From positions 1 to 34,269 of IMG/VR virus record IMGVR_UViG_3300044759_000069: a stretch of DNA of 34,269 nucleotides; one strand, given 5' to 3'. Each line of letters starts with the position of its first letter. The stretch's first letter is position 1. Shown piece by piece: positions 28,494 to 34,269 of this stretch. This DNA is from a virus. Taxonomy: Duplodnaviria > Caudoviricetes. The position numbers and the translations under genes were made by a program. The notes beneath the pieces are model-generated. The model did no database searches. It was not told the origin of the DNA and was given only the letters and a program-made list of their open reading frames with translations.

Positions 28494-28566
28494 ACCTTAG
28501 CGCGCCAACCTTAGCACACTAATTCATCCTTGACACGCGCTTGGCGCAGCGCCTAAAGTGCGCAGC
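28494..28566. promoter_or_regulatory. Divergent cI/cro promoter-operator region
   Basis: Rightward TTGACA (28530-28535), 18 bp, TAAAGT (28554-28559). Leftward TAAGGT twice. Dyads TTAG-CGCG-CCAA (28497-28508) and TTAG-CACA-CTAA (28511-28522). Confidence 0.7.
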
Positions 28567-30208: not shown

Positions 30209-30460
30209 GGCGCGGCTGGGCCTGGCCCGGCCCGGCTGGGCCTGGCAAGGCGGGGCGACGCGTGGCCTGGCGCGGCTGGTCTGGGCACGGCAGGCGTGAC
30301 GTGGTTCGGCGAGGCGTGGTCGGACGTGGCTTGGTCCGGCAAGGCGGTCGAGATGAGGCGCGGCCGGGCGCGGTCGGGTAGGACGCGGTCGGGCCTGGCC
30401 GGATGCGGCCGGGATTGGCATGGCTGGGCCAGGCGAGGCTTGGCTTGGCAGGCGAGGCGG
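30209..30460 (+). repeat. GGY-NN pentamer array 1 (putative guide RNAs; units of 16, 10 and 20 pentamers)
   Basis: Starts right after the upstream stop codon. Strict 5-nt phase broken only by GGCA (30289), GGCG (30343) and GGCA (30447); 37 of 46 triplets are GGY. Confidence 0.9.
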
Positions 30461-30610
30461 CGATGAAGCTGACAAGCGTGGTGATCACGATGGAAGCGCC
30501 CGATGAGAGGGACCCGGACTTCGGACTGCCGCCGAAGATCTGCAGCAGTTTATCGACCACGAAAGGCGATATCCAAAAGCGCCCTGAGCGGCGCACTGAA
30601 GGAGATGCGA

Positions 30611-31375
30611 ATGGTTGCCAAAAAGAAGACTGAAGAGTCCATCGACATCATGGAAATGACGCAGGGCAGGTTGACGGTGCGCCTGCTAGGGAAGACGCCG
30701 CTCGTTCTCAATGCGATGTCGAAGAAGATCATCGAAGGCCTTCTGCTGCCCTCGAAGAAGAACGCGGCCGAGCGAGCGGCCACGCTCAAGCACAACCCTC
30801 CTGAAGAGTATCGGTCGAGCGTCTACCGGTCCATGACGAACGATGCACCCACACGCATCGTGTTTCCCTCGGTGGCGTTCAAGGCCGCATTGGCCGACGC
30901 CGCGAAGGACATCCCCGGCGCGGCGAAAGCCCAGATCGGACGACTCACCTACGTCGAGGGCGACACCGTGTCGATCTACGGAATCCCGCAGATCTCGATG
31001 ATGGTGACTCGCATGGCCGACATGAACCGTACGCCAGACGTGCGTACGCGCGCGATCGTTCCGGAGTGGGCGTGCGAGTTCAGCCTCACCTACCTGACAC
31101 CGATCCTGAAAGAGATCACGGTCGTGCGGCTGCTGGCCGCTGCCGGGCTCATGCGTGGCGTCGGTGACGGGCGACCCGAGAAGGGCAAGTTCAGCTATGG
31201 CCAGTTCGAATTGGTCGGCAAGGACGACAAGCGCTGGGACGCAATCGTCAAGAAGGGCGGCCGAGATGCGCAAGACAAGGCGCTGGCCGACCCGCAGCCC
31301 TACAACAGCGACACGTTGGCGTTGCTGAAGTGGTGGGCGTCGGAGTCGGAGCGGCGCGGTTTCAAGATCGCGTGA
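30611..31375 (+). CDS. Solitary RAMP / Cas7-like RNA-binding protein (Vipr-like, 254 aa)
   Basis: AAGGAG SD; beta-1 LTVRLLGKTPLVLN; FPSVAFKAALADAA helix; VRTRAIVPEWACEFSLTY; Gly-rich loop AAAGLMRGVGDGRPEKGKFSYGQFEL, the motif order of RAMP proteins. Confidence 0.75.
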   Translation: MVAKKKTEESIDIMEMTQGRLTVRLLGKTPLVLNAMSKKIIEGLLLPSKKNAAERAATLKHNPPEEYRSSVYRSMTNDAPTRIVFPSVAFKAALADAAKDIPGAAKAQIGRLTYVEGDTVSIYGIPQISMMVTRMADMNRTPDVRTRAIVPEWACEFSLTYLTPILKEITVVRLLAAAGLMRGVGDGRPEKGKFSYGQFELVGKDDKRWDAIVKKGGRDAQDKALADPQPYNSDTLALLKWWASESERRGFKIA

Positions 31376-31382
31376 GGTTCGA

Positions 31383-31415
31383 TGCCGCGTCGAGACTCGC
31401 GCTCTCGGCGCGGCA
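31383..31415 (+). other. 13-bp stem-loop leading into array 2
   Basis: TGCCGCGTCGAGA-CTCGCGC-TCTCGGCGCGGCA (one G-U pair), followed by ACAC-GGCA and no U-tract. Confidence 0.8.
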
Positions 31416-31419
31416 ACAC

Positions 31420-31533
31420 GGCAGGCACGGCCGGGCTTGGCCAGGCGTGGCCAGGCGCGGCGTGGCGTGGCCGGGCGAGGCGTGGCGTGGTCCGACGCGG
31501 CTTGGCACGGCAAGGTGAGGTGAGGTGAGGTGA
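31420..31533 (+). repeat. GGY-NN pentamer array 2 (GGCA plus 22 pentamers)
   Basis: 21 of 22 triplets are GGY; ends in (GGTGA)x4, which supplies the SD of the next gene. Confidence 0.9.
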
Positions 31534-31537
31534 ATCG

Positions 31538-32047
31538 ATGAGAACAGAGCAGGAACGTCAGGCCGCAGAACTCGCGCTCCAGCAGCTCGAGCGCGATGGC
31601 CGGCTCACGCCGGAAGACGTGCTGAACGCGGCGGAGGACCCGTCGAGTCCGCTGCACGGGTGGTTCGACTGGAACGACGACACTGCGGCGCACAAGTACC
31701 GGCTCGAGCAGGCGCGCATGCTCATCCGGACCATCACCGTGGAGATCACCACCGAGAACAGGGTGTTGAAGTGCGTGAGGTACGTGCGTGACCCGAAGTC
31801 GGCCGGCGATGAGCAGGGTTACGTCTCCCTGCCGGAGTTGAGGCGAAGTCCGGACGAGGCGGCTGCGCTGCTGGTGTACGAGCTCGAGCGGGCGGAGAGC
31901 ATCCTCGGGCGCGCGGAGCTGTTGGTCGAGGTGCTCGCCCGAGAGGCCGAGACGGACCCGACGATTCAACCGCGGTTGGGCCGGCTGCGGCGCGGTGTGA
32001 CGAAGCTCGCGAAGAAGGTCAGGACGGAGACGCAACCGACGGCGTGA
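31538..32047 (+). CDS. Conserved phage protein partnered with the RAMP-like gene (169 aa)
   Basis: LTPEDVLNAAEDPSSPLHGWFDWNDDTAAHKYRLEQARMLIRTI motif; lies exactly between arrays 2 and 3. Confidence 0.8.
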   Translation: MRTEQERQAAELALQQLERDGRLTPEDVLNAAEDPSSPLHGWFDWNDDTAAHKYRLEQARMLIRTITVEITTENRVLKCVRYVRDPKSAGDEQGYVSLPELRRSPDEAAALLVYELERAESILGRAELLVEVLAREAETDPTIQPRLGRLRRGVTKLAKKVRTETQPTA

Positions 32048-32050
32048 TGC

Positions 32051-32404
32051 GGCAGGCGTGGCGTGGCAGGGCCCGGCGTGGCAAGGCAGGGCGGGGCCTG
32101 GCGCGGCAAGGCAGGCGGGGCAAGGGAAGGCCCGACCTGGCTGGGCAAGGCTCGGCAAGGCAGGTGAGTCCCGGCCTGGCATGGCGCGGCGAGGCCTGGT
32201 CGGGCGCGGCGAGATGCGGCAGGCGTGGACTGGCGCGGCGCGGCATGGCCTGGCAGGGCATGGCAAGGCAAGGCAGGCGAAGCGTGACTTGGCAGGGCGC
32301 GGCGCGGCACGGCTTGGCCGGGCAGGCGTGGCAAGGCGTGGCGAGGCACGGCGCGGTTTGGCTGGGCGCGGCGAGGCCGGGCACGGCGCGGCGAGGTAAG
32401 ACGT
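32051..32404 (+). repeat. GGY-NN pentamer array 3 (six GGCA-delimited units of 11, 9, 11, 10, 9 and 16 pentamers)
   Basis: GGCA at 32051, 32110, 32159, 32218, 32272, 32321; 58 of 66 triplets are GGY and the rest differ by one base. Confidence 0.92.
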
Positions 32405-33479: not shown

Positions 33480-34269
33480 ATGGTTGAGGTTATTCAAGAA
33501 CGACTCACGGAGATTGAGCGCCTCAGGCTGCTGCGTGGCTCGCATGACGGCGCGGAGGCGAAGGAGTTCTGCGTCATGGAGGCCGTCGCATACGTCGCGG
33601 GCGAGCGGCACTCTGACTCTCCCGCGTGCGCGTCGCCCGTGATCTCCGCGTTCATGCGTCGGTGGAATGACGATCTCGACGACGCAGGGCGCCAGCGCTT
33701 GAAGCCCTACATCCCGCAGCTCGTCGGCACCGCGGCGACGCCGGAGATCGAGCAGGCGCGCGGATGGATGGCCGCGGACTGGCTCGTGCGCGTGCATACC
33801 GCGGCGTGGTTGCGTCTCGCGAAGCTCGACGCACAGGCCGAAGCGCTCGAGCAACTGCCGCCTATCGATAGCCCTGCGCGCCTCGATGCCTCTGTGGTTT
33901 CGATTGCCGCAGCCAGGGACGCAGCCAGGGACGCAGCCTGGGACGCAGCCTGGGCCGCAGCCAGGGCCGCAGCCTGGGACGCAGCCTGGGACGCAGCCTG
34001 GGCCGCAGCCTGGGCCGCAGCCAGGGACGCAGCCAGGGCCGCAGCCAGGGACGCAGTCAGTGACGCAGCCAGGGACGCAGCCTGGGCCGCAGCCTGGGAC
34101 GCAGCCTGGGACGCAGCCTGGGCCGCAGCCTGGGCCGCAGCCAGGGACGCAGCCAGGGACGCAGTCAGTGACGCAGCCTGGGACGCAGCCAGGGACGCAG
34201 CCAGGAAGCATCTCGAGCCCACGAAGCTGTCGCTCGAGGAGTCGGCGTTCAAGCTGCTCGATCGCATGC
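33480..34269 (+). CDS. Phage AAWD/AARD tetrapeptide-repeat protein, 3'-truncated by the window (absent from ORF track)
   Basis: GGAGGG SD, ATG 33480; MVEVIQERL...GSH...CVMEAVAYVAGERHSDSPACASPVISAFMRRWND...DWLVRVHTAAWL; open to the window end. Confidence 0.85.
   Translation, partial: MVEVIQERLTEIERLRLLRGSHDGAEAKEFCVMEAVAYVAGERHSDSPACASPVISAFMRRWNDDLDDAGRQRLKPYIPQLVGTAATPEIEQARGWMAADWLVRVHTAAWLRLAKLDAQAEALEQLPPIDSPARLDASVVSIAAARDAARDAAWDAAWAAARAAAWDAAWDAAWAAAWAAARDAARAAARDAVSDAARDAAWAAAWDAAWDAAWAAAWAAARDAARDAVSDAAWDAARDAARKHLEPTKLSLEESAFKLLDRM
33909..34205 (+). repeat. 12-bp coding tandem repeat GCAGCC(A/T)GGG(A/C)C, 24 full copies plus one partial
   Basis: Read directly; two variant copies GCAGTCAGTGAC at 34053 and 34161. 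Confidence 0.95.

What the first reader, a model, noticed from the sequence alone, without database searches (positions are those of the whole stretch)
30209..32404. The NN code may read codon positions 1-2 and skip the wobble base; TA is never used
Seen: none of the 134 NN positions is TA. Inference: if one target base is skipped per NN (as I recall for VIPR), a guide has 3-nt periodicity and could ignore synonymous changes. Read as NNx codons, U3 gives [DE]PL[IM]A[DE]LRA[DE]A, U4 gives VLAA[IM]L[RS][IM][KN][KN], and array 1 unit C gives [DE][DE]ARAR[RS]ARLRAR[FL][IM][CW][HQ][DE][FL][FL]. These look protein-like, but any NN string can be read this way and TA is rare in GC-rich DNA. A partial by-eye check found no self-target in this window.
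Basis: inference. Interest (0 to 1): 0.72.

Follow-up and report, generated by a model that had tools for sequence, protein, structure and literature searches.

The report
Phage VIPR guides skipping wobble bases
This phage carries three five-base-repeat arrays around a gene whose protein is predicted to fold like CRISPR Cas7, and it likely uses them as VIPR guide RNAs that read two DNA letters and skip the third (wobble) letter of rival phages' genes, a code already published in 2026; no actual target was found, and the missing 'TA' is likely chance because close relatives use it.

Summary
Observation confirmed: ten GGY/NN tracts give 134 NN, none TA. The locus is a phage VIPR system: vipr 30611-31375 (only PDB sequence match SUSP1 Vipr, RAMP fold), a vap-like gene and staggered arrays joined by GGCA.

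The wobble-skip idea is already published (bioRxiv 2026.04.26.720920, 2026.10.15.759431), and this scan noted it before on other DNA. Here it is supported by composition only. In relatives (2837 NN, 77 loci) NN match sense-strand codon positions 1-2, best in 35 of 44 loci; in this window alone the support is modest.

No target was found: eight collection scans gave nothing or chance-level hits. 50 of 76 such hits were wobble-aligned anyway, so the proposed one-in-three null is wrong.

TA is no rule: relatives use it at 3.7%, and codon positions 1-2 predict more TA (Tyr), not less. Its absence here is a mild outlier (P about 0.01; 0.05-0.09 for any missing class).

Verdict: new member of a known system; low interest.

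The parts
30209..30460 (+). vrRNA array 1: tracts A (30209-30288, 16 units, with a 20-nt internal duplication), B (30293-30342, 10), C (30347-30446, 20) and a 2-unit remnant, joined by 4-nt register shifts (GGCA, GGCG, GGCA)
30611..31375 (+). vipr gene, 254 aa, RAMP (Cas7/Csm3-like) predicted fold; aligns R147, D186, R188 to SUSP1 Vipr R138, D177, R179; G187 stands where SUSP1 has W178
   Evidence: residue roles from 2026.04.26.720927
31383..31415 (+). 13-pair predicted hairpin between the vipr stop and array 2 (role unknown); it takes in the two pentamers left out of the 134 count
   Evidence: z -3.0; z -2.1
31420..31533 (+). vrRNA array 2: GGCA then 22 units; the last four are identical GGTGA units running into the start region of the next gene
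31538..32047 (+). vap-like accessory gene, 169 aa, no Pfam family, phrog_15946; its homologue follows the vipr homologue in Gordonia phages ODay and Ecliptus
32051..32404 (+). vrRNA array 3: U1 32055-32109, U2 32114-32158, U3 32163-32217, U4 32222-32271, U5 32276-32320, U6 32325-32404, each preceded by GGCA (1-nt overlap stagger)

Best explanation
The three arrays are staggered GGY/NN repeat arrays flanking a vipr gene in a temperate phage, and they are likely transcribed into guide RNAs that a predicted Vipr filament would use to pair each NN with double-stranded DNA while skipping one target base, most likely the wobble base of genes in rival phages or satellites, which would be silenced. 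Shown here: the arrays, the stagger motif, the Vipr relationship, and that NN of this clade carry the composition of sense-strand codon positions 1-2. Taken from the papers: the 1-nt skip, filament and silencing. Inferred: expression, guide ends and targets. The absence of TA is most likely sampling chance on the rarest class plus duplicated units, not part of the code.
For: Vipr: only PDB sequence match is SUSP1 Vipr (E 0.014 single, 0.0018 profile); Foldseek top hits are Csm3/Cas7 RAMPs (E 1.6e-6). Arrays occur in 75 of 83 sequences examined, window included; the stagger 4-mer is GGCA in 256 of 308 cases and most tracts between two staggers hold 8-12 units. Composition, 2837 internal NN of 352 guides in 77 GC-rich loci: second base A .27 C .26 G .21 T .26 against codon position 2 A .26 C .27 G .22 T .25; residual correlation 0.85 with sense 1-2; log-likelihood over background +212 for sense 1-2 against +8 or less for the other five phases, unchanged without AG; a sense 1-2 model won 1000 of 1000 locus bootstraps and was best in 35 of 44 loci. 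Mixture over 264 guides: 75% sense 1-2, 25% antisense 1-2, 0% other phases. NN order: z 2.4-3.0 for sense 1-2 against at most 1.3 for other phases (330 guides). Window alone, 110 internal NN: sense 1-2 +5.4 over background with own-gene models. Published rule.
Against: No target found for any window guide. In the window alone, models trained on relatives' genes do not separate sense 1-2 (+4.6) from a non-wobble antisense phase (+4.0), and tracts A and C fit sense 1-2 slightly worse than background. After matching margins the non-wobble antisense phase fits the clade almost as well (47.8 against 51.7). The order signal is under half that of real gene segments (z 5.3-8.3, in-sample). The first base has less C and more A/T than codon position 1, so other forces act too. 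Gene calls for the phase models were heuristic. No RNA data. The window's NN differ somewhat from the clade's (G-test p 0.016).
Confidence: 0.82

Rival explanations
1. The codon-like NN composition comes from constraints on the RNA itself (avoiding pairing with the GG scaffold, avoiding false GGCAG boundaries, Vipr preference), and targets lie in any phase or in non-coding DNA.
For: Clade guides fold slightly less than NN-shuffled ones (mean z +0.24, s.e. 0.05, 360 guides); the Y base depends on the following base (T in 36% before C, 16% before A); C is depleted at the first position.
Against: The folding effect is small; the fit holds without AG; background, uncalled DNA and AT-richer background models all fit worse than sense 1-2; wobble alignment is published for real targets of another clade.
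Confidence: 0.08
2. TA is actively excluded at this locus, for instance because a UA step would be cut in the RNA or CTAG is avoided in the host.
For: 0 of 134 against 3.7% in relatives, P 0.006-0.016; CTAG in the window is at half its expected count.
Against: Look-elsewhere P 0.05-0.09; 4 of 34 relatives with at least 40 NN also have none, while the 67%-identical L001 has 3 of 72; TA use after GGC is the same in loci with and without CTAG avoidance (52 of 1346 against 34 of 896, p 1.0).
Confidence: 0.1
3. This staggered-array clade uses a different skip length or targets RNA.
For: The 1-nt skip was shown biochemically for SUSP1, a distant Vipr matching only residues 146-196; W178 is G here.
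Against: A codon 1-2 signature needs a 3-nt period; a mostly sense-strand guide could not pair with mRNA (inference); skips 0, 2 and 3 gave no match at 80% in 4.2 Mb of loci either.
Confidence: 0.06
4. The arrays are decayed or neutral repeats with no present target.
For: No target found; internal duplications in tract A and the GGTGA run.
Against: vipr and vap frames are intact; NN are 52% GC in relatives of 58% GC or more; array 3 is unchanged in runs of 2017 and 2025.
Confidence: 0.04

Closest known systems
VIPR systems with staggered vrRNA arrays (bioRxiv 10.64898/2026.04.26.720920, text and legend of fig. S18; whole held text read, figures not seen)
   Same: Phage-borne vipr plus one accessory gene, GGY/NN pentamer arrays in the flanking intergenic DNA, 1-nt overlap between tracts, no self-target, proposed 1-nt skip on the wobble base.
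   Different: Type (I-VII) cannot be assigned without the figures and data files; three tracts here (20, 22 and, at the limit, 16 units) reach or pass the 9-16 range; no target identified.
Type II VIPR of Escherichia phage SUSP1 and the Pseudomonas fulva prophage (2026.04.26.720920; 2026.04.26.720927 parts 1-2 of 6 read; 2026.10.15.759431 part 1 of 8 and passages read)
   Same: G-loop and thumb residues R138, D177, R179 align; one array upstream and others downstream; wobble alignment reported for real targets.
   Different: Vipr is 254 aa against 202 aa, with a helical C-terminal extension and only a weak sequence match; tracts are joined by GGCA with no roughly 40-nt tail between them; W178 is G.
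Class 1 CRISPR RAMPs (Csm3/Cas7)
   Same: Predicted fold.
   Different: No CRISPR array or cas operon seen; guide pairing would be gapped, not contiguous.

Membership tests
VIPR | Vipr protein: stand-alone RAMP with RRM, thumb and G-loop | tested here: met
   SUSP1 Vipr the only PDB sequence match; RAMP fold, TM 0.4-0.5
VIPR | Tandem YNNGG (GGY/NN) repeats beside the gene | tested here: met
   120 of 138 triplets are GGC or GGT; arrays in 75 of 83 sequences
VIPR | Minimal locus, vipr plus vap, in a phage | tested here: met
   Capsid, portal, terminase, integrase in the contig; accessory gene homologue beside vipr in Gordonia phages; vap number not assigned
VIPR | 1-nt skip recognition with natural targets at 80% or more NN match | tested here: inconclusive
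   No target above chance in loci or collections; collection scans are exact-match only; tracts A, B, U2, U5 not scanned in collections
VIPR | Skip base at codon position 3 | tested here: inconclusive
   Supported by composition in the clade, modest in the window, untested on real targets
VIPR | No self-target in the source contig | tested here: met
VIPR | vrRNA expressed and bound by Vipr; repression of targets | not testable with these tools
   Needs small-RNA sequencing and reporter assays
VIPR, staggered-array architecture | Tracts overlapping by 1 nt | tested here: met
   GGCA shifts in window; 256 of 308 staggers in the clade
VIPR type II (SUSP1, P. fulva) | Conserved structured 3' tail after each tract | tested here: not met
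   Tracts follow one another after 4 nt; U6 with its downstream DNA folds no better than shuffles (z -1.2); pseudoknots not modelled

The most novel reading that the evidence does not exclude
In this staggered-array clade guides are written from the coding strand in codon register by an unknown templated acquisition step (about three quarters sense, none out of phase), rather than shaped only by mutation and selection, and the scaffold Y keeps a faint trace of the skipped base (z 2.2). The strand bias itself is well supported by composition; the templating is not, and the sense/antisense counts of published fig. S10 could not be seen.
Probability: 0.08. Interest if true: 0.75.

Novelty: new member of a known kind. 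Interest (0 to 1): 0.2.

Why it matters
The code itself is published, so the locus adds one more member. Two small things are useful. First, NN composition gives a target-free test that a distant, uncultured VIPR clade keeps the 3-nt, wobble-aligned code and mostly copies the sense strand, which bears on how guides arise; the VIPR texts read here describe no acquisition mechanism. Second, chance hits of codon-like guides are themselves wobble-aligned, so phase tests need a shuffled-guide null.

Tried and rejected
Self and local targets: 18 guide forms against window plus 82 loci, none above 30 shuffles; 10 guides at skips 0-3 against 152 sequences (4.2 Mb, both strands): one of 40 combinations (C, skip 3, 28 of 40) topped its 10 shuffles by one base, far below 80%. 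Family cross-scan of 162 and 364 guides matched the null; the one 19 of 20 match (L020 to L121) is a repetitive guide and was not followed. Exact scans of viral contigs: U3 units 1-9, 3 hits, best 20 of 22; U4 1-9 and U1 2-10, none; C 12-19, 3 hits, best 10 of 24 outside the core; U6 6-13, 14 hits, best 6 of 16; array 2 units 2-9, 25 hits, best 9 of 20. Metagenomes: array 2 units 9-18, none; U3 2-10, 103 hits = 76 distinct, 3 at 22 of 22 (1.1-1.6 expected) and 11 at 21 or more (11.1 expected); they lie in an MFS transporter, antisense to an IS66 transposase, in O-methyltransferases and others: rejected as chance. A relative's guide (L116) in 301 genomes of its genus, up to 2 mismatches: not found in those searched. 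Guides read as peptides against Vipr homologues: best 7 of 11. CTAG avoidance as cause of the TA gap: rejected. Y copying the wobble base: z 2.2, but the pattern follows pyrimidine-start neighbours, not codon usage. No RNA holder listed. No earlier notes on this genome.

Full report
Setting. The window is the whole record G000, a 34,269-base contig of 66% GC with capsid, portal, terminase and integrase genes, held by sediment and groundwater DNA runs. The finding lies in a rightward gene run that starts near a sigma-70-like site at 28530-28559 and a Cro-like HTH gene.

The observation. Tracts are joined by a 4-nt unit, GGCA in all but one case, so that each overlaps the next by one base. Contigs from other runs carry parts of the arrays with no differing letter.

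What the locus is. The 254-aa protein between arrays 1 and 2 has 1368 homologues among 3355 candidates. Its only PDB sequence match is SUSP1 Vipr (E 0.014, and 0.0018 with a 51-sequence profile), over the thumb and G-loop, where R147, D186 and R188 align with R138, D177 and R179, residues that contact the GGY bases in 2026.04.26.720927. Its model (pLDDT 85) matches Csm3/Cas7 RAMPs. The 169-aa gene after it has no Pfam family, and its homologue follows the vipr homologue in two Gordonia phages. Related loci carry the same arrays (75 of 83 sequences) with the same stagger (GGCA in 256 of 308). This is a VIPR system with staggered arrays as in the legend of fig. S18 of 2026.04.26.720920.

The wobble idea is published. 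2026.04.26.720920 (whole held text read; figures not held) shows the 1-nt skip in vitro and in vivo and states that skip bases align overwhelmingly to the third codon position, on both strands, and would defeat synonymous escape. 2026.10.15.759431 (part 1 of 8 and passages) reports it for a satellite recombinase and for nearly 90% of vipr-targeting orphan guides. A search for 'vrRNA' listed four works; of 2026.10.21.760802 I saw passages only. Four earlier notes of this scan on other genomes reach the same reading; they are not independent evidence.

Does it hold here? By composition, for the clade, yes. In 77 related loci of 58% GC or more (352 guides, first and last unit dropped, 2837 NN) the second base is A .27, C .26, G .21, T .26, as at codon position 2 (.26.27.22.25); the dinucleotide residuals correlate at 0.85 with sense positions 1-2. 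Sense 1-2 gains 212 log units over background, the other five phases 8 or less; the result holds without AG; a sense 1-2 model won all 1000 locus bootstraps, also against AT-richer background models, and was best in 35 of 44 loci with 30 or more NN. A mixture over 264 guides gave 75% sense 1-2 (66-82) and 25% antisense 1-2 (17-34). NN order gives z 2.4-3.0 for sense 1-2 and at most 1.3 for other phases, against 5.3-8.3 for real gene segments. Limits: gene calls were heuristic; with margins matched a non-wobble antisense phase comes close (47.8 against 51.7); the first base is poorer in C than codon position 1; guides fold slightly less than shuffles. For the window alone (110 internal NN) sense 1-2 gains 5.4 with own-gene models (P 5e-5 under background, 3e-4 against the non-wobble antisense phase), but only 4.6 against 4.0 with models from relatives.

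Targets. None found. Window guides did not beat shuffles in the window or in up to 151 related loci. Six exact scans of viral contigs and two of metagenomes, covering six of the ten tracts, gave no hit or hits that did not extend beyond chance. For U3, 3 of 76 distinct metagenome hits reached 22 of 22 (1.1-1.6 expected) and 11 reached 21 or more (11.1 expected), in unrelated cellular and IS genes. Exact scans miss targets with a mismatch in the core, and the source community was not searchable, so this is not a refutation. One side result matters for the proposed test: 50 of those 76 chance-level hits were wobble-aligned (frames called by a codon score), and shuffled guides gave 14-63%. One in three is the wrong null.

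TA. Relatives use it at 105 of 2837; 30 of 34 relatives with 40 or more NN have it, among them L001 at 67% identity. At codon positions 1-2 TA (Tyr) is commoner than in background (1.8% against 1.3%), so its absence gives the codon idea no support. Against the clade rate P is 0.006-0.016, and 0.05-0.09 for any empty class. CTAG avoidance does not explain it. Most likely chance; a local constraint is not excluded.

Mechanism. Likely: transcription with the early operon, division at the GGCA overlaps into guides of about 9-12 units, one Vipr per unit, NN paired mostly with the template strand of a rival's gene with the wobble base flipped out, and repression helped by the accessory protein. Only the anatomy, the protein relationship and the compositional signature are shown here.

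Verdict. Interest 0.2. The data files and figures of the VIPR preprints were not visible; they bear on the type and on whether the sense bias is new.

Noticed in passing
window 30435-30588 (run X3, also X2, X4): A variant strain differs upstream of vipr (a few letters and a 1-base deletion at 30570-30588) and in X3 has a different end of array 1 (16 letters put in at 30446, loose end at 30435), while X3 contigs match array 3 exactly: possible guide turnover in array 1.
   Followed up: partly
window 32055-32114: U1 folds into a long hairpin, far more stable than its NN-shuffled versions (z -4.0, 0 of 200), unlike other guides.
   Followed up: no
window 31383-31415; L043 3388-3447, L148, L061: Hairpins just 5' of an array block occur here and in some relatives (18 of 186 leaders with z below -2).
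   Followed up: partly
window 31169-31171 (vipr codon 187): G stands where SUSP1 Vipr and the family consensus have the G-loop W that stacks on the second G of GGY.
   Followed up: no
related loci L001-L149: The scaffold Y is T about twice as often before a pyrimidine NN as before a purine NN (36% and 31% against 16% and 17%); the last NN before the stagger is often AA (4 of 10 tracts here).
   Followed up: partly
window 33480-34269: Gene with about 25 copies of a 12-nt repeat coding an Ala-rich tetrapeptide repeat, matching phrog_8332 and phrog_3416.
   Followed up: no
L003 9105-11980: A relative with very large staggered arrays (221 NN in about 20 tracts).
   Followed up: no
phages collection, H4-H12: The vap-like protein matches genes in 27 Mycobacterium phage records in which the Vipr query found no match.
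   Followed up: no
G003 (genome of L112): Two vipr homologues on different contigs of one Paraburkholderia genome.
   Followed up: no
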